Source: Escherichia phage MN01
Sequence record: MT129652.1
Direction: 5' to 3' (one strand)
Length of the DNA: 64,000 nucleotides
Below the pieces are notes generated by a model. It was given only the letters and a program-made list of their open reading frames with translations, was not told the origin of the DNA and did no database searches. Shown here piece by piece: positions 1 through 56,098 of this stretch; within the stretch, counting starts at the first letter, position 1, and the number at the start of each line of letters is the position of its first letter. A program made the position numbers and the translations under genes.

Positions 1-272
1 ATAACCATAACCAACCAGATCTTCTGGCCGCAGTAAAAGAAATCCATGAAGCCATTCGCCGTGCTGAGGAAATTGCAGACAAATATGAGACTCATTTTAA
101 TATATACCCTGCTCGCGGTATGGGCGGTGACTATTATTCTCCTGGCGCCTTGAAAGCTGACCTTGCTCATTGGGAAGAAGATGGTCATCCTGAATGGGCC
201 ATTGTTAATACTCATGACTACACAACCGACCTGGAAAATGGCGGTTGGGTGTCCTCTTCTTCTGAATGTTAA
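1..272 (+). CDS. Partial CDS (3-prime end); small protein ending GWVSSSSEC, first member of a tandem paralog family
   Basis: Open frame from window edge to TAA at 270-272; C-terminal W-x-SS-x-C motif shared with the next three ORFs; AAGGAA SD for next gene follows. Confidence 0.5.
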   Translation, partial: NHNQPDLLAAVKEIHEAIRRAEEIADKYETHFNIYPARGMGGDYYSPGALKADLAHWEEDGHPEWAIVNTHDYTTDLENGGWVSSSSEC

Positions 273-280
273 GGAATTAT

Positions 281-478
281 ATGTCTCGTGAATTAGATTG
301 TGCAATCCGTACTGCCGCAGCAGCTATTGAAAACGTTATCCAGATTTGCAAAGAAGAACGCGAAGAAGCTGATATCTATATCGATGGTGTTCGTGACCTA
401 GACCGACATATTACGCTTTATAATGGTTGTATTACTATTAGTGGTACCTCTTGGGTGTCCTCCTCTTACGAATGCTAA
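281..478 (+). CDS. Hypothetical small protein, W-x-SS-x-C C-terminal family
   Basis: ATG at 281 with AAGGAA 5 nt upstream; ends SWVSSSYEC; the C-terminus-plus-SD DNA block is repeated at 449-490 and 677-718. Confidence 0.55.
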   Translation: MSRELDCAIRTAAAAIENVIQICKEEREEADIYIDGVRDLDRHITLYNGCITISGTSWVSSSYEC

Positions 479-487
479 GGAAATAAA

Positions 488-706
488 ATGACTACTAAAA
501 CTGTTAAAGAAATCGAAGACCAAATCCGTGCACTAATCTGTGAAGGTCTGACTGCGGCGGATGAAACCGGCGAACACTTCCGCGCCGGTGGCGAAGAATA
601 TATTCCAGCTTCTAGCCCGGAATATGACGATTATGAATGGGTTCGTGATGAATATTGTATTCCAGAAGGTGAAGGTTTCTGGTTTAACTCCTCTATGTCT
701 TGCTAA
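488..706 (+). CDS. Hypothetical small acidic protein, W-x-SS-x-C C-terminal family
   Basis: ORF track 72 aa; ends FWFNSSMSC; SD AAGGAAA upstream. Confidence 0.55.
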   Translation: MTTKTVKEIEDQIRALICEGLTAADETGEHFRAGGEEYIPASSPEYDDYEWVRDEYCIPEGEGFWFNSSMSC

Positions 707-715
707 GGTGATAAA

Positions 716-949
716 ATGACTACTACTGTTGAACATGCTGAATTAGAAAAAGCTGCCCTTGAACTGGCCGCGCTGTATAAGAAAGTAAAAGATATGGCTT
801 TTGCTCAAGATTTCGGTGTCGAGCTTGATGATTATGACGGCGAAGTCCGTCTTGAAGACTGGTTGAACAGCTCTTGTTATGGTGAAGAAGCTGGGCGTAC
901 CTTCGTTGCTCGTGCCGATGGTAAAATCTGGTACCCAAGTTCATGTTAA
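716..949 (+). CDS. Hypothetical small protein, W-x-SS-x-C C-terminal family
   Basis: ORF track 77 aa; internal DWLNSSC and terminal IWYPSSC motifs. Confidence 0.55.
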   Translation: MTTTVEHAELEKAALELAALYKKVKDMAFAQDFGVELDDYDGEVRLEDWLNSSCYGEEAGRTFVARADGKIWYPSSC

Positions 950-1523: not shown

Positions 1524-2483
1524 ATGATGTTAGTTATTGGTTCTCGTGCATTACATAACGCTGGCCTGATTGAAAGTCAGAAAATTGAAAACTCTGATTG
1601 GGACTTCATCGCTGACCAAGGTTCCTGGAACCACTTTAAAGCACGTATGTTCGGTGCTCATGTTCCTGTGGATAACCCTGATGTCCAAGCTTTTAAATGT
1701 ATGTACAATGGCAAAGAAACTTATTTTGAAGCTTATATTGTCCGTGCCCTGACCAACGTACGAGAAATTACTGGTGAGCTTCAAGACGAAGATTTCACCT
1801 CAAGTTATCGTCTCTTGAAATACGCTGAAAATCATATTAAGAAAGACCGTCTTACAGGTTTCTATTGGGCAACTCCTGATATTTGTCTGGCAATTAAACT
1901 GTCTCATCGTTACCTGAAGAACAATCCATTCTTCCTGAAGACCATGAGCCATATTAATTACCTTCGTAATAAGGGTGTTGTTCTTAATGATGAACTGCAG
2001 AAAATCATGCTGCAACGGCAGGCAGAAACACTGTCATACAGCCACCCTAAACTAGACGTGGGCAAGAAAACTTTCTTTAATGATACAATCTATACCCTTG
2101 ACCATGACTCCATCCACGAGGCCGTGGCGCTTGCTGATAAGCCTGCATATAAGTTCTATATGAAGGATGATTCAGAAGTCATGACCTCGCGTGAAAAATT
2201 TGAAGCACTCCCTGATGTTATTAAACTGGCAGGTGTTTATGAAGAAGCATGTGTACTTGCTCTGGAGCGTTCGCAGGTTCCCAATGAGTTTAATATCTCT
2301 CCATCCGTGAGCTTCCATATTGCTCTGGAAAAAGTCTGCACCTCCATTACTTCTGGATGGTTCCGTGAGTATGCCTGGGAACATTACCAGGAAGTGGTTA
2401 ATATGTACAACACCCTGGGTCGCGAAGACTATGTTAAACGTTTCAAGGCTAACCAACATTTAATTCGTCCTTTCACAAAATAA
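1524..2483 (+). CDS. Hypothetical protein (319 aa)
   Basis: Internal ATG at 1524 preceded by GAGGAAAAT SD; long open frame typical of phage coding density. Confidence 0.6.
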   Translation: MMLVIGSRALHNAGLIESQKIENSDWDFIADQGSWNHFKARMFGAHVPVDNPDVQAFKCMYNGKETYFEAYIVRALTNVREITGELQDEDFTSSYRLLKYAENHIKKDRLTGFYWATPDICLAIKLSHRYLKNNPFFLKTMSHINYLRNKGVVLNDELQKIMLQRQAETLSYSHPKLDVGKKTFFNDTIYTLDHDSIHEAVALADKPAYKFYMKDDSEVMTSREKFEALPDVIKLAGVYEEACVLALERSQVPNEFNISPSVSFHIALEKVCTSITSGWFREYAWEHYQEVVNMYNTLGREDYVKRFKANQHLIRPFTK

Positions 2484-15113: not shown

Positions 15114-15309
15114 CAAAGAAATCAAGGTCTTCTTATCATACGGAAGACCTCATAAAGGCCGCCGATGGTATCTCGAAGCAGTCTGTCGAGAAACTGGTCG
15201 TCGAATCAATATCAAGTACACATGCAAACCAACACCCAAGCAAACTCGCAGGTTTGCTAATTGGGCTATCAATAATATCAGATTCCATAATTTTTGGAGT
15301 GCAATCTAA
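15067..15309 (+). CDS. Hypothetical basic protein (uncertain)
   Basis: 80 aa ORF overlapping the previous gene by 47 nt; no alternative in-frame ATG; ends just before a terminator. Confidence 0.3.
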   Translation: MLKRYTLTTTIPIIVNKEIKVFLSYGRPHKGRRWYLEAVCRETGRRINIKYTCKPTPKQTRRFANWAINNIRFHNFWSAI

Positions 15310-15332
15310 GGACCCTTCGGGGTCCTTTTTTA
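15309..15332 (+). terminator. Rho-independent terminator
   Basis: GGACCCTTCGGGGTCC hairpin followed by TTTTTT. Confidence 0.65.
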
Positions 15333-15393
15333 TTTTAAAGGTGTACAAACTTGTCTCTGTTGATGCATAATGAATTTTTACTAAGGAGCCATT

Positions 15394-15570
15394 ATGAATC
15401 ATATGAGACCTCGCGTATCCAAACAAACGCGAGAAGAAGCGATTGAACATTTTAAACGCCATCATGGAAGTCAATCATGCGAGGTGATTGTTGGTATCGA
15501 CATAGAAAAGATGAAGGAAACTGCCAAGCACTACCAGGGCAGGATTGATATTAAAAATTATATAAAGTAG
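15394..15570 (+). CDS. Hypothetical small protein (58 aa)
   Basis: ATG at 15394 with AAGGAG SD 7 nt upstream; below the ORF-track size cut-off. Confidence 0.4.
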   Translation: MNHMRPRVSKQTREEAIEHFKRHHGSQSCEVIVGIDIEKMKETAKHYQGRIDIKNYIK

Positions 15571-15639
15571 TGTACATCAGTATGGGGATAGACGTATAAT
15601 GTTCCCATACTGAGTTACCAAATAAAAACGGAGAATAAA
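15567..15639 (+). promoter_or_regulatory. Promoter-leader cassette, family A (GTGTACA...TATAAT in hairpin loop...CATACTGAGTTACCAAATA)
   Basis: Near-identical copy at 16154-16223; AGTATGGG/CCCATACT inverted repeat brackets the -10 TATAAT. Confidence 0.5.
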
Positions 15640-15846
15640 ATGTTAGAATTAATCAAAGCTGCTGGTGAAAAAGGTCTGATGGTTAACACTCGTGACCCTG
15701 AACAACGTCAAGCATTTGGTGAGTTAAAAGCTAAAGGTCTGGTTAAAGCATCCCTTGGTATTGGTAATGCTTTGCGTGTGACTTTGACCCCTGCTGGTAA
15801 AGCAATGTTCTTCCCTAAACCATTACCAAAACGTCGTCGCAAGTGA
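15640..15846 (+). CDS. Hypothetical small basic protein
   Basis: 68 aa; C-terminal PKPLPKRRRK. Confidence 0.5.
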   Translation: MLELIKAAGEKGLMVNTRDPEQRQAFGELKAKGLVKASLGIGNALRVTLTPAGKAMFFPKPLPKRRRK

Positions 15847-15852
15847 GGAATT

Positions 15853-16155
15853 ATGAAAAAGTATGAACTTGACATGATTGACGCATGTCTGAAATCTGCT
15901 GACCATTTTAAGTTGAAAATGCACAAGTTAAGAGGAATGGTCAAAACTCCAGAAGAGAAGAAGCGTTATGCTCTGAAGGAGAAATGTAAAGCTCTTATCA
16001 TGATGGATAAGATGCAAATGGTCGCCGCAGAAGCTCACAGAACACGTAAAGCTGAGGCCCTTGGTGTTTATATGGCGGAGCAGCTCCATCGCGCCCAGCA
16101 AGCCGTTAAGAGCGTCTGGTTCAGCGGTGAAAATACTGAAAGAACTTTTAATTAA
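15853..16155 (+). CDS. Hypothetical protein
   Basis: 100 aa; bracketed by the two family-A cassettes. Confidence 0.5.
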   Translation: MKKYELDMIDACLKSADHFKLKMHKLRGMVKTPEEKKRYALKEKCKALIMMDKMQMVAAEAHRTRKAEALGVYMAEQLHRAQQAVKSVWFSGENTERTFN

Positions 16156-16223
16156 ATGTGTACATAGTATGGGGATAGACGTATAATGTTCCCATACTGA
16201 GTTACCAAATACTGGAGAATAAA
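16154..16223 (+). promoter_or_regulatory. Promoter-leader cassette, family A (second copy)
   Basis: GTGTACATAGTATGGGGATAGACGTATAATGTTCCCATACTGAGTTACCAAATA; differs from the 15567 copy at only a few positions. Confidence 0.5.
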
Positions 16224-16748
16224 ATGGAAGCCAAATCAATCTTTAATCTGATTAATTACAATAATGGTAATTTTAAATCAGAAGCACAAAGCAAGTTCTT
16301 TAATGATGTTGCTTGTGCAGGTGAGATTACAGTATCAGGTGGCCAAACTTATAAAAACGCCTGGAACTGGATTGTGACTGTTGATTCAGTTGGTATTGTT
16401 GATGTGTATAAAAACACCAATAAAAACCGCTCTTTGTTCTGGTCAAGAGAGACTAATGCTGAGTATCAGGCAACAAGAGCAAAGAAAAATATGCCTACTG
16501 AATCTGATGTACAAAACATCAAATCAGATATCCAGTATTATGATGGTCTGATTGCTGAACAACAAGCGGTGCTTGATAAGTTCAATGAAATCAAAGCATG
16601 CAAAGAAATTCCTGAATTCATGCGGGAATCAGTTAATGAACAATACAATCTCACTTCAGAGCGTATTGAAACCTATACCAAACAAAGAGCAGAGCGCCAG
16701 GTACTCCTTCAGAAGTTTGAAGAGCGTTTAAAGACGGTTCTCGCATAA
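16224..16748 (+). CDS. Hypothetical protein
   Basis: 174 aa ORF. Confidence 0.55.
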   Translation: MEAKSIFNLINYNNGNFKSEAQSKFFNDVACAGEITVSGGQTYKNAWNWIVTVDSVGIVDVYKNTNKNRSLFWSRETNAEYQATRAKKNMPTESDVQNIKSDIQYYDGLIAEQQAVLDKFNEIKACKEIPEFMRESVNEQYNLTSERIETYTKQRAERQVLLQKFEERLKTVLA

Positions 16749-22620: not shown

Positions 22621-23094
22621 ATGTTGTTGACTGGCAAATTATACAAAGAAGAAAAACAAAAACTTTATGATGCACAAGCTGGTAAGTGTCCAATTTGCCA
22701 CCGTGATTTGGACTCTGATGTTCAGGCCAACCATCTTGACCATGACCACGAATTGAACGGGCCAAAAGCCGGTAAGGTTCGCGGGTTACTATGCAATCTG
22801 TGCAATGGAACAGAAGGGCAAATGAAGCATAAGTTCAGCCGTTCGGGTCTGAAAGGTCGTGATGTTGACTACCTGGAATGGTTAGAGAGTTTGCTTGTCT
22901 ATCTGAAATCTGATTATACCGAAAACAATATTCACCCTAATTTTGTGACAGACAAAGCTAAAGAGTTCGGTCGCCTGGGGAAAGAAGAAATGATTCAGGA
23001 AATGCTTTTGAACGGCATGACTTATAATGAATCTGATACGAAGCCTAAACTACAAGCTTCATTTAAAAAACAACTGAGGAAATCGCTTAAATGA
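22621..23094 (+). CDS. 49: Endonuclease VII (Holliday junction resolvase)
   Basis: MLLTGKLYKEEKQKLYDAQAGKCPICHRDL...HLDHDHELNGPKAGKVRGLLCNLCN...KKQLRKSLK closely matches T4 gp49; 157 aa. Confidence 0.93.
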   Translation: MLLTGKLYKEEKQKLYDAQAGKCPICHRDLDSDVQANHLDHDHELNGPKAGKVRGLLCNLCNGTEGQMKHKFSRSGLKGRDVDYLEWLESLLVYLKSDYTENNIHPNFVTDKAKEFGRLGKEEMIQEMLLNGMTYNESDTKPKLQASFKKQLRKSLK

Positions 23095-23179
23095 TTAATT
23101 TTTATGGAATTATTGTATATTGTATTGGCGAAGCTATAAACAATTTAATACGATTGATGGGTGAGGAGTATCCTTCTCA

Positions 23180-23431
23180 ATGGCTATTCCTCGTAACCAA
23201 TACAGGACCTTTCTAATGAACAAATTTCGTAATGCTGTTTCTGATATCCTGGCCAATATTACATTTGTCTTGTTTATTGTGTGCCTTTTAATTCTGGTCG
23301 TCCCATTTGGATTGCTGTTTGTGATGATTGGCGCCCTGAGTACTGAAAAGGGCCTTGAAGGGTCTGAGTTCGACAAACGAATCCAGGCTGTCCATAGTGT
23401 TATTGCTAAAATGATGAAGGTGAAAGAATGA
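23180..23431 (+). CDS. Hypothetical membrane protein
   Basis: 83 aa; central hydrophobic helix ITFVLFIVCLLILVVPFGLLFVMIGAL. Confidence 0.4.
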   Translation: MAIPRNQYRTFLMNKFRNAVSDILANITFVLFIVCLLILVVPFGLLFVMIGALSTEKGLEGSEFDKRIQAVHSVIAKMMKVKE

Positions 23432-24956: not shown

Positions 24957-25154
24957 ATGAATCCACAATCTAAATTGTCACAACGTATTGCAGAAGAACG
25001 TGCCAAATTTTTCCAGAACATGAAACACTCTGGCATTGAGGATGAAGTTTTTCTGAACTGGTTTTGGAATAATAAGTATGCAGCATGTGAAGGCGCACTG
25101 CTTTTGTCCGTTGCAATGATGTATGAAGGCTGGAAAGCGGCTAAAGCGCAATAA
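24957..25154 (+). CDS. Hypothetical small protein
   Basis: Internal ATG at 24957 directly after upstream stop; 65 aa. Confidence 0.4.
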   Translation: MNPQSKLSQRIAEERAKFFQNMKHSGIEDEVFLNWFWNNKYAACEGALLLSVAMMYEGWKAAKAQ

Positions 25155-25226
25155 AAACCAACGGGGTCATGGTATAATGACCCCAGGATAATAAAATTTT
25201 AATTTAATGAGACTGAGGAATATATC

Positions 25227-31275: not shown

Positions 31276-31992
31276 TTATTGAGGCTTCATTTTGCAGTTA
31301 TCAAAATGCCAACGTTTCATATTAGCTGGCATACCGACTACATTACAGTGTGGACACTGAATTTTGGGGTCCACCTTTTTCTTCCGGTTTGGATTGGATT
31401 TGCAGAATTGTTGGTGAGTGGATATAACACACTTTTTACCTTCAAGCCCGCAAAATTCACAATTTAAAATTTCATGTTTAGCTTGTTTTAAACCTACTGA
31501 AATTTTTTGCTTTTGCTTTTCCGGAATAGTATGAACAACCTTGTTTGGACCTTTGGAACAGTTATCAAAATGCCAACGATTCATATTGCCAGCGAGACCG
31601 GTTTTTCCACAGTGTGGACATTCGACTCTCGGTTTTAATTTGGCGGATTCTGACATTTTCTTTCTGGTTTCATCGGAGAAAATTTTATTTTGTTGAGCTT
31701 CCAAGTTTTTACGACGAAGCCATCCAAATAATTTGTTTTTGCTTCTGTCGGCATTTGGTGCAGAAACTGTCATCATGCGCGCGGCATAGACCAAAGAAGC
31801 GTTATTTGGATGCATTTTGACCAACAGTTGATGGCAAACGAAATGTTCCTCGGGAGTTAAATCAACAAGATTTGAAGCGTCGTCAGCCCCACCCATACAA
31901 CGGGGTATAATGTGATGGCTTTCAGAGTATGTGGTTAATTTGCGATTCAATGCTCTGCTAATAAGCTTTTGGTAAATGATGTTATAATTCAT
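31276..31992 (-). CDS. HNH homing-endonuclease-like protein with duplicated C-terminal zinc fingers
   Basis: Only long minus-strand gene in the region; HNH core SESHHIIPRCMGGADDASNLVDLTPEEHFVCH; repeats CPHCGKTGLAGNMNRWHFDNC and CPHCNVVGMPANMKRWHFDNC; start taken at internal ATG (MNYNIIYQ). Confidence 0.7.
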   Translation of the reverse strand: MNYNIIYQKLISRALNRKLTTYSESHHIIPRCMGGADDASNLVDLTPEEHFVCHQLLVKMHPNNASLVYAARMMTVSAPNADRSKNKLFGWLRRKNLEAQQNKIFSDETRKKMSESAKLKPRVECPHCGKTGLAGNMNRWHFDNCSKGPNKVVHTIPEKQKQKISVGLKQAKHEILNCEFCGLEGKKCVISTHQQFCKSNPNRKKKVDPKIQCPHCNVVGMPANMKRWHFDNCKMKPQ

Positions 31993-42403: not shown

Positions 42404-42485
42404 GGGTGTACAAGCCCCTTGTCTTAGGACATAATGATTCCGTACTGAGTTACACAATAAACCAACTGTTAAAAAGGAAAACCAT
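42404..42485 (+). promoter_or_regulatory. Promoter-leader cassette (GGGG-TGTACAA-GCCCC hairpin, CATAAT -10, CGTACTGAGTTACACAATA leader)
   Basis: Hybrid of the family A leader with the family B style hairpin. Confidence 0.45.
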
Positions 42486-42788
42486 ATGTTTAATCAAACC
42501 GATATGAACCGTTACTATTTTGGTCAGTTCGCTCGCCGTGATGAAAACTGTGCTGCTCTTATCGCATCAGGCATTCAAACTGGTAAATTAATAAAGCTCA
42601 AAAGCGATGTTCAACCTTCATCTGTTCGCAGCTCTCTTCGTGAGTATCTGCTTGCAGGCGGTGAAGTATATGTTATCGCTGAACCTTTTGTTAACGTGTG
42701 TGATGATTACACAATTAGTGTGACTGTTATGCACCCAACTACTGGGAAAATTCGTTGTCTGACTATGCACAACTATGAGTTGGCGTAA
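42486..42788 (+). CDS. Hypothetical protein
   Basis: 100 aa; terminator follows. Confidence 0.5.
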   Translation: MFNQTDMNRYYFGQFARRDENCAALIASGIQTGKLIKLKSDVQPSSVRSSLREYLLAGGEVYVIAEPFVNVCDDYTISVTVMHPTTGKIRCLTMHNYELA

Positions 42789-50982: not shown

Positions 50983-51060
50983 TAGTGTACATGAAAGATG
51001 AACAGTGTATAATAATTTCATACTGAGTTACCAAATCGTCCGTAAGATGAGAAAAATAAC
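50983..51060 (+). promoter_or_regulatory. Promoter-leader cassette, family A variant
   Basis: GTGTACATGAAAGATGAACAGTGTATAATAATTTCATACTGAGTTACCAAAT. Confidence 0.45.
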
Positions 51061-51804
51061 ATGAATATGTCAAAAGAAGAGTTTGAATTAAAAGTTTACA
51101 AACGTCGCGAGCATACCAAAACGTCTGCAAAACGTCGTAACAAGGATTTCAATCTGTCTAGTAAGTATATTGCTAATCTTTTGAAACAAGAATTCTGTGC
51201 GTATTCTGGTGAACGTTTTGATGAAAATTCAACTCAAGATAAAGTTTCCTTTGAACGCTTTAACAATGATATAGGTTATATTGAAGGCAATGTTATCCCT
51301 GTCAAAACTAAGTACAACGGTTTACGTGCTGATTTATCTCTTGATGAACTTAAACGTGCACAGACTCGTTTGGCGGTGCGTATTAATGGCGGTTCTAAGA
51401 TGCCCAATAGTTTTAAAGTAACTCCTGATGGCTATTATAAAATTCGCAAAATTGTTAAAAATATTAAAGATACTGAACGTGGAATCAAGAAGCGTCAAAA
51501 ACATTTAAAAGAGCTTTATAAAAGTGGCGCTAAAGATACCACCCCTTCTGTGATTGCAGTCAAGGCTCGTATACATGGACAAATGGCTTCCATTGGAACT
51601 AGTCAACGTGGACTGAAAATGGTTATGGGTGGTCCTGACTGGCGTCTGAAAATGAAATCATCTGACGCTGAAACGCGTTACGATATGTATGATAAAATTA
51701 TTCAAGGTCTGGAGCGTTTAGATAAGTTGTCATTCATTGACCGTCTTAAACTGAAACGTGGCCTGCCTTTGAACGCGTCAATTTTTAAACTGATTAGAGG
51801 TTAA
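51061..51804 (+). CDS. srd: Srd-like protein
   Basis: 247 aa basic protein at the T4 srd position (between the modA/modB-like genes and dda.1/dda); no motif confirmed. Confidence 0.4.
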   Translation: MNMSKEEFELKVYKRREHTKTSAKRRNKDFNLSSKYIANLLKQEFCAYSGERFDENSTQDKVSFERFNNDIGYIEGNVIPVKTKYNGLRADLSLDELKRAQTRLAVRINGGSKMPNSFKVTPDGYYKIRKIVKNIKDTERGIKKRQKHLKELYKSGAKDTTPSVIAVKARIHGQMASIGTSQRGLKMVMGGPDWRLKMKSSDAETRYDMYDKIIQGLERLDKLSFIDRLKLKRGLPLNASIFKLIRG

Positions 51805-53430: not shown

Positions 53431-53668
53431 AGTACATAAAGAAGATTTAGATAATCTTATCTATGGTATTCAGGACGCGGTTGAATTTTTCGAAGATAAT
53501 CCGACTATCGTCGTGCAGGGTAATTACGTTTTGCTGGAACTGAATCTTATTCGGAAACGTATGGCCGCGATTGAATATTTTAACAATGAAGAGCCAGGGA
53601 TTTTTATCTCCGACTATGTTGCTGGTGAAATTCAGAAATTAAAAGAGATGTGCGATGGTTGCTGGTGA
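53423..53668 (+). CDS. Hypothetical protein (dexA.1 position); C-terminus altered by tandem duplication
   Basis: Internal ATG at 53423; reading frame runs into the second copy of the 40-bp repeat and ends ...EMCDGCW. Confidence 0.45.
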   Translation: MYKVHKEDLDNLIYGIQDAVEFFEDNPTIVVQGNYVLLELNLIRKRMAAIEYFNNEEPGIFISDYVAGEIQKLKEMCDGCW

Positions 53669-53697
53669 AATTCAAAAATTAAAAGAGATGTGCGATG
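53618..53697 (+). repeat. 40-bp tandem direct duplication (2 copies, 1 mismatch)
   Basis: GTTGCTGGTGAAATTCAGAAATTAAAAGAGATGTGCGATG at 53618-53657, repeated at 53658-53697 with CAG to CAA; spans the upstream stop and the dexA ATG. Confidence 0.9.
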
Positions 53698-54703: not shown

Positions 54704-55458
54704 TGAAACCAGAATTTATTGACTTTGATGTTGTAAGCATGTATGTTCGCCCAATTAAACCATTAAAACTTGAGAAACAAAATATGACTATTGAAATTAA
54801 CAAAACTTATCAACTGATTGAACCTATTATTCAAAACGCAGCTATGGTTTCTGGGTATAATACTCTGACTGATGCTTTAGGCGAAGGTGAATTTATTGTT
54901 GAAACTTTTGTAAAAAGTAACTGGTTTGATAAAGCATATATTCTACATGCACGTCGCCTTGATACAAATGAAGTAGAAAAAATTACGGTTTATGAAGCTG
55001 AGATTGAACTCTTCAAAGAAGTTGAAGAAACTCCTATCAAAGTTGGTAAAACCTATCAGCTTATTGAAGATGCTAGTCAGTTTGGAAAGACCGTTGCAAT
55101 GCATGCTGGTTGGCGCGTACTGAAAGGTATTTTTGGATTTGCTCCATTTACCGTTAAAACAGTTAAGTACCACAATCACCAAAGCATCTTTGAATTTACT
55201 GCGGTCAATGAATCAGGTGACAATCTTGAAGCTATCCTTTATCCGCGTGAATCTGTACTGCTGGAAGAAGTTAGCGAACTGGGTGACCCTATTGACTTGC
55301 TGTGTAAACCAGTTCAAATCAAACGCCCATTTAACAGTTCCATTTGTGGTTGGGTAACAGACCAGTGGATTGAAGAGGGTGTTGAACTCCTGAACGTTGT
55401 TCATGCTGGTGAATTTACTGTTGTACCACGTTCCATGGTTGTTGAAATTTTTAATTAA
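54703..55458 (+). CDS. Hypothetical protein with internal repeat; paralog of 55538..56098
   Basis: 251 aa; repeated NKTYQLIEPIIQNAAMVSG / GKTYQLIEDASQFGKTVAMHAG; C-terminal GWVTDQWIEEGVELLNVV...FTVVPRS shared with the next gene. Confidence 0.55.
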   Translation: MKPEFIDFDVVSMYVRPIKPLKLEKQNMTIEINKTYQLIEPIIQNAAMVSGYNTLTDALGEGEFIVETFVKSNWFDKAYILHARRLDTNEVEKITVYEAEIELFKEVEETPIKVGKTYQLIEDASQFGKTVAMHAGWRVLKGIFGFAPFTVKTVKYHNHQSIFEFTAVNESGDNLEAILYPRESVLLEEVSELGDPIDLLCKPVQIKRPFNSSICGWVTDQWIEEGVELLNVVHAGEFTVVPRSMVVEIFN

Positions 55459-55537
55459 ATTTAAAGTGTACAAACTCTTGGGGTCGGAGTATAATGACCC
55501 CACTGGAGAATAAACTTATTAACCAAGAGAGAAAATT

Positions 55538-56098
55538 ATGAAAGTTGAAGCTGGCGAAATCGTTCGCGTATCCAAAAAATCTCGTTCAAGAGCTGCTGGA
55601 CGTTTTGTTGAGGTTGTCAGTATTCGTGCTGATATTTTTGTTGACCATCCTGATAATGAAGTAAAGGTGCGTATCATTCCCAAAAATGGTCAGACTGAAA
55701 CTCAATTCGCTTATGTACGTGCTAAATTCCTGGAATCAACTGCTATCACTGCCACCAACCTCCCTGTGGTTGAAGAAGTTGAATCCCATGATGGATATGT
55801 GTGCGAAAGCAATGATATTCGTGGCGTAATTGCTCAAGACGTTGAAACCATTGACCAGTCTCATGTTGGGGTTGATTTTAAATGGAAATTGGGCAAAGGT
55901 GTCTTTTTTGTTTCACCTAAACCGTTTGAATATGTTGACGAACCTTTTGGTACTTATGAAACCACTAGCATGTCTGGTTACATCACAGACCAGTGGGTTG
56001 AAGAAGGCGTTAAGCTCTATAACATCGTGTTCCTTGGAACCTTTAAGGTGGTTCCTGAAAGCTTTATCGTTGAGTATGCTGATATTCATCGTGCCTAA
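55538..56098 (+). CDS. Hypothetical protein; paralog of 54703..55458
   Basis: 186 aa; C-terminal GYITDQWVEEGVKLYNIVFLGTFKVVPES. Confidence 0.55.
   Translation: MKVEAGEIVRVSKKSRSRAAGRFVEVVSIRADIFVDHPDNEVKVRIIPKNGQTETQFAYVRAKFLESTAITATNLPVVEEVESHDGYVCESNDIRGVIAQDVETIDQSHVGVDFKWKLGKGVFFVSPKPFEYVDEPFGTYETTSMSGYITDQWVEEGVKLYNIVFLGTFKVVPESFIVEYADIHRA

What the first reader, a model, noticed from the sequence alone, without database searches (positions are those of the whole stretch)
15567..16223. Two near-identical 66-bp promoter-leader cassettes bracket a two-gene unit
GTGTACA-(T/C)-AGTATGGGGATAGACGTATAATGTTCCCATACTGAGTTACCAAATA occurs at 15567 and again at 16154, with the -10 TATAAT held in the loop of an AGTATGGG/CCCATACT hairpin. 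Variants occur at about 42404 and 50983. Such long direct repeats in a phage are substrates for homologous recombination and could mark a mobile or exchangeable gene cassette. The hairpin around the -10 may act as a DNA-level or RNA-level regulator.
Basis: seen in the sequence. Interest (0 to 1): 0.55.

Follow-up and report, generated by a model that had tools for sequence, protein, structure and literature searches.

The report
Paired early-promoter cassettes in T4-like phage
The two near-identical 70-base repeats are early-gene promoter cassettes with a built-in stem-loop, a kind already described in T4-like phages as "PeSLs". They became alike through a recent recombination event, so the finding is real but ordinary.

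Summary
The repeat is real. GTGTACAT plus an exact 46-nt block occurs at 15570-15624 and 16158-16211, and similarity continues to the ATGs at 15640 and 16224. The window is a T4-like Gaprivervirus (about 95% identical to Shigella phage SP18), in the nrdC.11-nrdC.8 early region. Each copy fills a whole 68-69-nt intergenic gap: AT-rich tract, -35 GTGTACA, 17/18-nt spacer, -10 TATAAT, CCC then A (predicted start), GGAG, ATG. A GGGG...CCC stem-loop encloses the -10 (RNA z -4.7 and -3.1). This matches the published PeSL cassette, whose commonest stem-loop position lies between the boxes or over the -10. The bracketed genes (RB69ORF102c-like and nrdC.9) are present in every relative, so they are not a variable cassette. 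What varies is the slot just upstream of copy 1. In 8 of 10 sequenced relatives, copy 1 has a different spacer. Only the window, SP18 and VR26 carry the copy-2-type spacer there, and these three also carry an inserted 58-aa gene. The near-identity is therefore a lineage-specific recombination product. Cassette-mediated indels are seen elsewhere: VR25/VR26, and 6 of 22 window-SP18 breaks against 1.6 expected. Promoter, terminator and mini-circle activity were not tested. Verdict: new member of a known kind.

The parts
15308..15337 (+). Intrinsic-terminator-like stem-loop (AAGGACCCTTCGGGGTCCTT plus a T-run) after the 80-aa ORF. It is conserved in all relatives and marks the left edge of the variable slot.
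   Evidence: terminator scan; alignment A2
15341..15393 (+). Early-promoter cassette of the inserted 58-aa gene: -35 TGTACA 15342-15347, 18-nt spacer, -10 CATAAT 15366-15371, AAGGAG, ATG 15394. It has no internal hairpin.
15394..15570 (+). 58-aa gene (phrog_12120, function unknown). Among Gapriverviruses it is present only in SP18, VR26 and this window. Other homologues lie in unrelated 45-49-kb phages and in the RB49/phi1 group. Its stop codon TAG overlaps the first G of the -35 heptamer GTGTACA of copy 1.
15570..15642 (+). Cassette copy 1: -35 GTGTACA 15570-15576; stem 5' arm 15577-15590; loop 15591-15599; -10 TATAAT 15595-15600; 3' arm 15600-15613 (Watson-Crick core TCAGTATGGG/CCCATACTGA); predicted start A 15607; GGAG 15630-15633; ATG 15640.
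   Evidence: the start site is inferred from the C-run at -3..-1 reported for RB69-type early promoters (PMC1524935)
15640..15846 (+). 68-aa gene (RB69ORF102c-like, phrog_6001, function unknown). First bracketed gene; present in all Gaprivervirus relatives examined.
15853..16155 (+). nrdC.9 (100 aa, Pfam DUF7203). Second bracketed gene; no promoter lies between it and the 68-aa gene.
16158..16226 (+). Cassette copy 2, the nrdC.8 promoter ('P_B'): -35 16158-16164; 5' arm 16165-16177; -10 TATAAT 16182-16187; 3' arm 16187-16199 (Watson-Crick core AGTATGGG/CCCATACT); predicted start A 16194; GGAG 16214-16217; ATG 16224. This is the ancestral site of this spacer type and is present in 31 phage records.
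16224..16748 (+). nrdC.8 (174 aa, phrog_2274), the gene served by copy 2.
42406..42488 (+). Variant cassette of the same leader subfamily (CCGTACTGAGTTACACAAT). Its stem-loop AAGGGG/CCCCTT encloses the -35 instead of the -10. It lies exactly at a window/SP18 indel breakpoint.
50985..51063 (+). Variant cassette of the same leader subfamily (TTCATACTGAGTTACCAAATC). It has no significant hairpin.

Best explanation
**What it is.** The two repeats are paralogous early-promoter cassettes of the PeSL type ('promoter-early stem-loop') in a T4-like Gaprivervirus. Each fills the whole gap between two small early genes.

**How it works (inferred from anatomy and published PeSL work).**
- Host sigma-70 RNA polymerase uses GTGTACA (-35) and TATAAT (-10).
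- Transcription starts at the A after CCC (15607 and 16194), giving a 30-33-nt leader with a GGAG ribosome-binding site.
- The GGGG...CCC stem-loop has its 5' arm in the promoter spacer and its 3' arm across the start site. It can therefore form only in RNA that reads through from upstream.
- There it most likely attenuates transcription or protects the 3' end of upstream messages, as proposed for PeSL stem-loops.

**Why the copies are near-identical (shown by comparison).** The likeness is a lineage-specific recombination product, not an ancient paired design. In the SP18/VR26/window lineage, a 229-bp module (a promoter plus a 58-aa gene) sits between two -35 boxes. The old spacer and -10 upstream of the 68-aa gene were replaced by the nrdC.8-type sequence. 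The replacement is bounded by the -35 heptamer and the 19-nt leader that both sites already shared.

**Consequence.** The pair is now a 55-70-bp direct repeat. That is long enough for T4-type homologous recombination, but no relative has lost the genes between the copies.
For: **Identity and promoter anatomy.**
- The window is closest to SP18, VR26 and other Gapriverviruses in the nrdC.x early region.
- The promoter scan gives 10 of 12 matches with 18- and 17-nt spacers for the two copies.
- GTGTACA occurs 18 times against 5.4 expected, 15 of them on the + strand. I curated 19 early-promoter sites that lie just upstream of start codons; 14 carry GTGTACA, four GTTTAC and one GTGTACG.
- The 40 nt upstream of each -35 are 70-72% AT against 59.9% for the window.
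- The C-run at -3..-1 fits RB69-type early promoters (PMC1524935).

**Match to PeSLs.** The published definition is an AT-rich tract, a sigma-70-like promoter, a polyG/polyC stem-loop, an SD and an ATG. The commonest stem-loop positions are between the boxes or overlapping the -10 (PMC2839356).

**Hairpin.**
- RNA z-scores are -4.7 and -3.1.
- Across 27 promoters, native spacer/downstream pairings beat swapped ones (p = 2.5e-4).
- A paralogue carries a compensatory GGA/TCC change, and the VR26 and UPEC07 variants keep pairing through G-U.
- The orthologous nrdC.8 promoters of T4 (z -3.6) and a Mosigvirus (z -3.5) carry different hairpins in the same place.

**Recombination history.**
- 8 of the 10 relatives with sequence at that site have the 'P_A' spacer at copy 1. 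P479 is one of them but carries the copy-2-type bases just after its -10. SP18 and VR26 have the copy-2 type, as does the window.
- The 58-aa gene is restricted to the same three phages.

**Cassette-linked indels.**
- Five arrangements occur upstream of copy 1.
- A 369-bp indel between VR25 and VR26 has its breakpoints inside the shared cassette.
- 6 of 22 window-SP18 breaks touch a cassette, against 1.6 expected (P = 0.0013).
Against: - No transcription start, promoter strength, termination or mini-circle data exist for this phage or its genus. Promoter and stem-loop functions are inferred from anatomy and from experiments on RB49/phi1.
- The hairpin is not followed by a U-run and is not called by the terminator scan, so it is not a canonical intrinsic terminator.
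- Only about a third of the early promoters carry such a hairpin.
- 16 of the 22 window-SP18 indels do not touch a listed cassette.
- Two routes to the copy-1 sequence cannot be told apart: import with the 58-aa module, or later gene conversion from copy 2. VR26's copy 1 resembles the nrdC.8 promoter of VR7 and VR25 rather than its own.
Confidence: 0.85

Rival explanations
1. One reading: the two repeats mark the 68-aa gene plus nrdC.9 as a mobile unit that is gained, lost or swapped between phages.
For: The repeats are direct, 55-70 bp long and 587 bp apart. This is the geometry that gave deletions and mini-circles in RB49/phi1 (PMC2839356). A one-gene unit bounded by cassettes of the same leader family is present in VR25 and VR20 and absent in VR26. 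At genus level the interval is plastic: nrdC.10 lies between the two genes in Mosigvirus, and the 68-aa gene is absent from T4 and JS98.
Against: Both genes are present in all 11 relatives that were read. In the 13 records where the nrdC.11 and nrdC.8 halves join into one place, the gap is 697-894 bp, never a deletion-sized gap. In most relatives the two promoters share only the -35 box and the leader, so the long repeat is recent.
Confidence: 0.1
2. The stem-loop acts on DNA rather than RNA. It would extrude as a cruciform or form in single-stranded DNA, serving as a target for a structure-specific nuclease or binding protein that starts recombination, or as an element that occludes the promoter.
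For: The core is a perfect 8-10-bp inverted repeat, and the DNA fold is better than shuffles on both strands (z -2.6 and -1.6 on +, -2.9 on -). The PeSL authors speculate that GGGG...CCCC stems may be targets of a recombination protein, and they cite GGGC/GCCC motifs at T4 deletion endpoints (PMC2839356). Copy 1 is a breakpoint.
Against: The extended stem needs G-U pairs that exist only in + strand RNA. RNA z-scores are stronger than DNA ones. Both natural stem variants (A to G in UPEC07, RZ and pEC-M719; C to T in VR26) keep pairing only as G-U. Crossover points in relatives fall in the shared -35 and leader blocks, as plain homology predicts.
Confidence: 0.15
3. The hairpin is a transcript-isoform switch. 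Only read-through RNA can fold it, so expression of the downstream gene, or RNA fate, differs between read-through transcripts and those started at the cassette's own promoter. This would resemble the hairpins that silence T4 e, soc, 49 and I-TevI on early transcripts.
For: The 5' arm lies upstream of the predicted start and the 3' arm spans -3 to +7. In T4 the orthologous nrdC.8 promoter has a 13-bp hairpin whose 3' arm is the Shine-Dalgarno GGAGGAAC (z -3.6), and JS98 has a weaker version (z -0.8). The T4 late-gene precedent rests on my own knowledge and was not tested here.
Against: In this window the stem ends 16 nt (copy 1) or 14 nt (copy 2) before GGAG, so the ribosome-binding site is not sequestered. 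Many cassettes lack any hairpin. The PeSL stem-loop tested in RB49/phi1 behaved as a terminator or attenuator.
Confidence: 0.2
4. The likeness of the two copies is convergence on an optimal promoter sequence, or chance.
For: All early promoters of this phage share -35, -10 and leader motifs.
Against: Identity extends through spacer positions that carry no consensus. There were 0 chance matches in 100 shuffles. Orthologous copy-1 sites in 8 relatives have a different spacer.
Confidence: 0.02

Closest known systems
PeSLs (promoter-early stem-loops) of T4-type phages: RB49/phi1 (Arbiol et al. 2010, PMC2839356), and T4/PST and KVP40/nt-1 (Comeau et al. 2014, PMC4122927)
   Same: Composite intergenic cassette of about 70-100 bp: upstream stop codon in an AT-rich tract, sigma-70-type early promoter, polyG/polyC stem-loop (here enclosing the -10, one of the commonest published positions, with G-T pairs), SD and ATG. 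It lies upstream of small genes of unknown function in a hyperplastic region. Neighbouring copies act as crossover points for gene indels.
   Different: The phage genus (Gaprivervirus) was not analysed in those papers. The -35 is GTGTACA rather than TTGACA (RB49) or TTTACW (T4/PST). A distinct leader subfamily (ATACTGAGTTACCAAA, about 6 copies per genome) is seen. The genes between this particular pair are not variable. No functional or mini-circle data exist here.
T4 early promoters (Pe), as reviewed in PMC2988021 and compared across T4-like phages in PMC1524935
   Same: GT(T/G)TAC -35 at the right distance from a TATAAT-type -10, an A/T-rich upstream region, C residues at -3..-1, and a position directly upstream of early genes including novel ORFs. 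T4 itself has orthologous promoters before nrdC.10 and nrdC.8 that share GTTTACAAG and a 21-nt -10/leader block.
   Different: G instead of T at the third position of the -35 hexamer. There is no experimental mapping in this genus.
Hairpins that hide the ribosome-binding site of T4 e, soc, 49 and I-TevI on early read-through transcripts, with a promoter inside the hairpin (from my own knowledge, not checked in the library)
   Same: A promoter is nested in a hairpin so that its own transcripts lack the 5' arm, and only read-through RNA folds.
   Different: Those cases use late or middle promoters and pair with the SD or start codon. Here the promoter is early, and the 3' arm covers the start site rather than the SD. 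The T4 orthologue of the nrdC.8 promoter does pair with the SD.
Integron attC/gene cassettes (analogy drawn by the PeSL authors)
   Same: Short repeated elements flank single small genes and allow excision as circles and reinsertion.
   Different: There is no dedicated integrase or attI site. Exchange is thought to use the phage's general homologous recombination, and each cassette brings its own promoter.

Membership tests
PeSL (promoter-early stem-loop cassette) | Sigma-70-type early promoter: -35 and -10 hexamers 17 +/- 1 nt apart | tested here: met
   TGTACA-18-TATAAT and TGTACA-17-TATAAT, 10 of 12 matches each. They belong to a set of 19 curated sites upstream of start codons.
PeSL (promoter-early stem-loop cassette) | AT-rich tract upstream of the -35 that holds the stop codon of the upstream gene | tested here: met
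   72% and 70% AT against 59.9% for the window. Stop codons lie at 15568-15570 and 16153-16155.
PeSL (promoter-early stem-loop cassette) | Stable stem-loop, usually polyG...polyC, at one of five positions relative to the promoter (most often between the boxes or overlapping the -10) | tested here: met
   GGGG...CCC stem enclosing the -10. RNA -22.5 and -19.6 kcal/mol, z -4.7 and -3.1. Definition in PMC2839356.
PeSL (promoter-early stem-loop cassette) | Shine-Dalgarno sequence and start codon of the downstream gene at the 3' end | tested here: met
   GGAGAATAAAATG is shared by both copies and ends in the ATGs at 15640 and 16224.
PeSL (promoter-early stem-loop cassette) | Lies in a hyperplastic region upstream of small genes of unknown function | tested here: met
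   nrdC.11-nrdC.8 interval. The 58-, 68-, 100- and 174-aa products hit only families of unknown function. Gene content differs between four genera.
PeSL (promoter-early stem-loop cassette) | Indels or replacements between close relatives begin or end at the cassette | tested here: met
   Met at copy 1: five arrangements, and a 229-bp module bounded by -35 boxes. Met genome-wide: 6 of 22 breaks against 1.6 expected, P = 0.0013. Not met for the genes between the two copies.
PeSL (promoter-early stem-loop cassette) | Demonstrated promoter and terminator/attenuator activity | not testable with these tools
   Needs reporter fusions or transcript mapping. It has been shown only for RB49/phi1 elements.
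PeSL (promoter-early stem-loop cassette) | Formation of mini-circles by recombination between neighbouring cassettes | not testable with these tools
   Needs inverse PCR on infected cells or virions.
Intrinsic (Rho-independent) terminator | GC-rich hairpin followed directly by a U-run | tested here: not met
   The stems are followed by GAGTTACCAAAT. They are not called by the scan, which does call the true terminator at 15308.
T4 middle promoter | MotA box (a/t)(a/t)TGCTT(t/c)a centred at -30 in place of a -35 | tested here: not met
   No TGCTT lies in either spacer. Consensus from PMC2988021.
RBS-sequestering hairpin with internal promoter (T4 e/soc/49 type) | The 3' arm pairs with the SD or start codon of the downstream gene | tested here: not met
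   The stems end at 15613 and 16199, while GGAG lies at 15630 and 16214. The feature is met in the T4 orthologue.
Any Rfam RNA family | Covariance-model match at the gathering score | tested here: not met
   No match anywhere in the 64-kb window.

The most novel reading that the evidence does not exclude
Promoter-embedded hairpins whose 3' arm carries the transcription start (here) or the ribosome-binding site (the T4 and JS98 orthologues) may form a conserved 'insulator' logic at T4-like early genes. Read-through RNA folds and is attenuated, cut or poorly translated. RNA started at the cassette's own promoter cannot fold and is fully active, so each inserted gene module is expressed on its own terms. 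The structure is kept at the nrdC.8 promoter in at least three genera (weakly in a fourth) with unrelated arm sequences, which points to selection on the fold rather than on the sequence.
Probability: 0.2. Interest if true: 0.5.

Novelty: new member of a known kind. Interest (0 to 1): 0.25.

Why it matters
It extends the PeSL picture to a further genus of T4-like coliphages and gives a well-resolved natural example of how it works. A promoter-plus-gene module is inserted between two -35 boxes, a promoter spacer is replaced between shared homology blocks, and a one-gene deletion lies between cassettes in sister phages. For annotation, it explains the long intergenic direct repeats in these genomes and predicts where gene content will differ between isolates. 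It does not reveal a new mechanism.

Tried and rejected
- **Deletion variants.** I built a junction query (the last 501 bp of nrdC.11 fused to nrdC.8) and searched the phage collection in distant and near modes. No record places the two genes closer than about 697 bp.
- **Metagenome scan.** The copy-2 core sequence gave 0 hits in metagenome contigs.
- **Rfam.** The whole window gave no match.
- **IMG/VR.** A scan for relatives of nrdC.9 returned only VR20, VR25 and VR26. The 16-nt leader scan returned mostly chance hits outside T4-like genomes.
- **50985 variant.** I considered ATGAAA/TTTCAT there as compensatory evidence for the hairpin. I rejected it because the fold is no better than shuffles (z +0.7).
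- **T4 record.** I looked for annotated promoters in it, but none are annotated in these stretches.
- **Literature.** The held library contains no analysis of PeSLs or early promoters in SP18, VR7 or other Gapriverviruses.
- **Complementary distribution.** I asked whether internal hairpins replace upstream terminators. The pattern fits (two promoters with upstream terminators lack internal hairpins), but about nine promoters have neither, so the test is inconclusive.
Full report
**1. Observation**

The sequence is as described, with small corrections.
- A 33-nt core occurs exactly twice in the window, and never in 100 dinucleotide-preserving shuffles.
- The repeat finder gives an exact 46-nt block at 15579-15624 and 16166-16211.
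- GTGTACAT precedes each block, at 15570 and 16158.
- After ACCAAATA there is a 3-nt indel and one mismatch. GGAGAATAAAATG is then shared again and ends in the start codons at 15640 and 16224.
- Each unit is therefore 73 or 69 nt and fills the entire gap between two genes.
- The sites at 42406 and 50985 share the -35 heptamer and the leader TACTGAGTTAC, so the 'variants' are real.

**2. What the window is**

Megablast places the region in T4-like myoviruses of the genus Gaprivervirus. SP18 is 95% identical, followed by VR26, UPEC07, VR7 and others. The region is the nrdC.11-nrdC.8 part of the early region.

The gene order is nrdC.11 (RlaP-type nucleotidyltransferase), an 80-aa ORF, a terminator, a 58-aa gene, copy 1, a 68-aa gene (RB69ORF102c-like), nrdC.9 (DUF7203), copy 2, then nrdC.8. 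All the small products hit only families of unknown function.

**3. Anatomy of the cassettes**

- Both copies score 10 of 12 in the sigma-70 scan: TGTACA, an 18- or 17-nt spacer, TATAAT.
- GTGTACA occurs 18 times in the window against 5.4 expected, 15 of them on the + strand. Reading the sites gives 19 early-promoter-like units directly upstream of start codons; 14 carry GTGTACA, four GTTTAC and one GTGTACG.
- The 40 nt upstream of each -35 are 70-72% AT against 59.9% overall, and they contain the stop codon of the upstream gene.
- The C-run followed by A after the -10 fits the preference for C at -3..-1 reported for RB69-type early promoters. GT(T/G)TAC fits the T4 early -35 (PMC1524935; PMC2988021).
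- There is no MotA box, so these are not middle promoters.
- The predicted starts at 15607 and 16194 are inferred, not shown.

**4. The hairpin**

Strength in the window:
- As RNA, copy 1 folds into a 14-bp stem (10 Watson-Crick pairs, then G-U, A-U, U-G, A-U) at -22.5 kcal/mol, z -4.7.
- Copy 2 folds into a 13-bp stem at -19.6 kcal/mol, z -3.1.
- Both lie in the lowest 0.3% of 52-nt windows of this sequence.
- As DNA the z-scores are weaker: -2.6 and -1.6.
- The stem is not followed by a U-run and is not called as a terminator, unlike the true terminator at 15308.

Hairpins across the promoter family:
- Five of the 19 promoters in the window have a strong hairpin enclosing the -10: 2486, 15570, 16158, 43618 and 55466. 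Two have one around the -35: 24032 and 42406.
- Across 27 non-redundant promoters from the window and relatives, each spacer pairs better with its own downstream segment than with those of other promoters (permutation p = 2.5e-4).
- Within the ATACTGAGTTACCAAA leader subfamily, which has about six copies per genome in VR20 and VR25, the arms co-vary. Examples are CAGTATGGG/CCCATACTG, CAGTATGGA/TCCATACTG (z -4.3), GGGATA/TATCCC, and a 13-bp GGTAACTCAGTAT/ATACTGAGTTACC.
- The two natural substitutions in the stem of the nrdC.8 promoter both leave G-U pairs: A to G in UPEC07, RZ and pEC-M719, and C to T in VR26.
- The orthologous nrdC.8 promoter has a different significant hairpin in T4 (z -3.6; 3' arm is the Shine-Dalgarno sequence) and in a Mosigvirus (z -3.5). 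JS98 has a weak one (z -0.8).

The fold seems to be selected in a subset of cassettes, and the G-U pairs favour action in + strand RNA. The 5' arm lies upstream of the predicted start, so only read-through transcripts can form it.

**5. Relatives: what varies and what does not**

The bracketed genes are constant:
- The 68-aa gene and nrdC.9 are present in all 11 relatives that were read: SP18, UPEC07, UPEC01, RZ, VR7, pEC-M719, VR20, VR25, VR26, P479 and PSD2001. The PSD2001 record is cut inside the first gene.
- A junction query made of the end of nrdC.11 fused to nrdC.8 matched 228 records in near mode and 1100 in distant mode. In only 13 do the two halves join into one place, and there the gap is 697-894 bp. 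That gap is the two genes plus their cassettes.
- The bracketed unit is therefore not a presence/absence cassette.

The slot between the terminator after nrdC.11 and copy 1 does vary. It is empty, or it holds a 225-bp ORF, two ORFs, a reversed 747-bp gene, or the 58-aa gene.

The spacer at copy 1:
- Eight of the 10 relatives with sequence at that site carry a different spacer and -10 there, 'P_A' (GTGTACAaccagatggtcatgatgcataat). They share only the -35 heptamer and the 19-nt leader with the nrdC.8 promoter.
- P479 is one of the eight but is a hybrid: the P_A spacer with the copy-2-type bases after the -10.
- Only SP18, VR26 and the window have the copy-2-type spacer at copy 1.
- These are also the only Gapriverviruses with the 58-aa gene. 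Its other homologues lie in unrelated 45-49-kb phages (about 70% and 45% amino-acid identity) and in RB49/phi1 (52%).
- Alignment A2 shows a 229-bp module, made of a promoter and the 58-aa gene, lying between two copies of AAAG(TA)GTGTACA.

The near-identity is therefore a lineage-specific product of recombination at the shared blocks. I cannot tell whether the copy-2-type spacer came in with the module or was copied later from copy 2. VR26's copy 1 matches the nrdC.8 promoter of VR7 and VR25 rather than its own.

**6. Do such cassettes mediate indels in this genus?**

Yes, at other places.
- VR25 and VR20 have three small genes, each preceded by a cassette of this leader family. VR26 lacks one 369-bp unit, and the two homology segments overlap by 50 bp inside the cassette.
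- Between the window and SP18 there are 22 breaks with at least 100 unmatched bases. Six touch one of the 19 cassettes, against 1.6 expected from circular shifts (P = 0.0013).
- In JS98, two near-identical promoters about 290 bp apart bracket an unannotated small ORF between nrdC.11 and nrdC.10.

**7. Comparison with what is known**

Arbiol et al. 2010 (PMC2839356) define PeSLs in RB49 and phi1:
- They are an AT-rich tract with the upstream stop codon, a sigma-70-like early promoter, a stem-loop often of polyG and polyC, an SD and an ATG.
- There are five subclasses by stem-loop position. The commonest lie between the boxes or overlap the -10, and G-T pairs are marked in their figure.
- They show promoter activity, and terminator-like activity of one stem-loop. 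They also show deletions between neighbouring PeSLs and mini-circles with crossovers between the -10 and the SD or ATG.

Comeau et al. 2014 (PMC4122927) extend this to T4/PST and KVP40/nt-1.

Every sequence-level defining feature is met here; the functional ones cannot be tested with these tools. I found no paper in the held library that analyses PeSLs in Gapriverviruses. The finding is therefore a new member of a known kind.

**8. Verdict**

The promoter cassettes and the recombination substrates are supported. The mobile two-gene unit is not.
- The hairpin is real and probably selected, but it is a described feature.
- Best explanation: PeSL-type early-promoter cassettes made near-identical by a recent recombination event, confidence 0.85.
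- Interest 0.25.

Noticed in passing
L121 (JS98) 392-810: Two near-identical promoters (GTGTACATCTGCTTTAAACATGTTATTATAGACCTATCA) about 290 bp apart bracket an unannotated small ORF between nrdC.11 and nrdC.10. This is the same phenomenon in a Dhakavirus.
   Followed up: partly
L057 (VR25) against L014 (VR26) and L018 (VR20): A 369-bp unit (one small gene plus one ATACTGAGTTACCAAA cassette) is present in VR25 and VR20 and absent in VR26. The two homology segments overlap by 50 bp inside the cassette, which makes this a clean cassette-to-cassette indel.
   Followed up: yes
L120 (T4) 1884-1950, minus strand: The T4 nrdC.8 early promoter carries a 13-bp hairpin (-19.4 kcal/mol, z -3.6). Its 5' arm lies in the promoter spacer and its 3' arm is the Shine-Dalgarno GGAGGAAC, so only read-through RNA would hide the ribosome-binding site.
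   Followed up: partly
window 53618-53697: A 40-nt tandem duplication (98% identical) lies at the end of a 93-aa ORF, and its last ATG is the dexA start. The copy number varies: some relatives match over 1051 bp and others over 1011 bp.
   Followed up: partly
window 1216, 7928, 11842, 24032, 38145, 42823, 43618, 50250, 54385: A second, larger leader subfamily: after the -10 these promoters share (T)ATCCCATCAACTACTGA(G/T)GAG running into the Shine-Dalgarno sequence. This conservation goes beyond what a promoter alone needs.
   Followed up: no
window 15394-15570: The closest homologues of the 58-aa gene outside SP18 and VR26 lie in unrelated 45-49-kb Salmonella, Escherichia and Klebsiella phages (about 70% and 45% amino-acid identity) and in RB49/phi1 (52%). 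This indicates transfer between phage groups.
   Followed up: partly
window 245-725: Three or four direct repeats spaced 206-228 nt apart each include a ribosome-binding site and ATGACTACTA. They look like a tandem array of tiny paralogous genes (families D14 and D16).
   Followed up: no
window 23094-23216: SP18 has about 2.4 kb here where the window has 121 nt. This is the largest of the 22 indel or replacement breaks between the two phages, and it is not next to a listed early promoter.
   Followed up: no
window 25152-25185 and 55469-55502: Two further promoters share a GGGGTC...GACCCC hairpin around TATAAT, 30 kb apart (family D19; fold of 55466).
   Followed up: partly
window 31295-31356 / 31559-31620 and 55341-55400 / 55969-56028: There are two pairs of 60-62-nt direct repeats, 73-77% identical, spaced 264 and 628 nt apart, probably inside paralogous coding sequences (families D8 and D10).
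   Followed up: no
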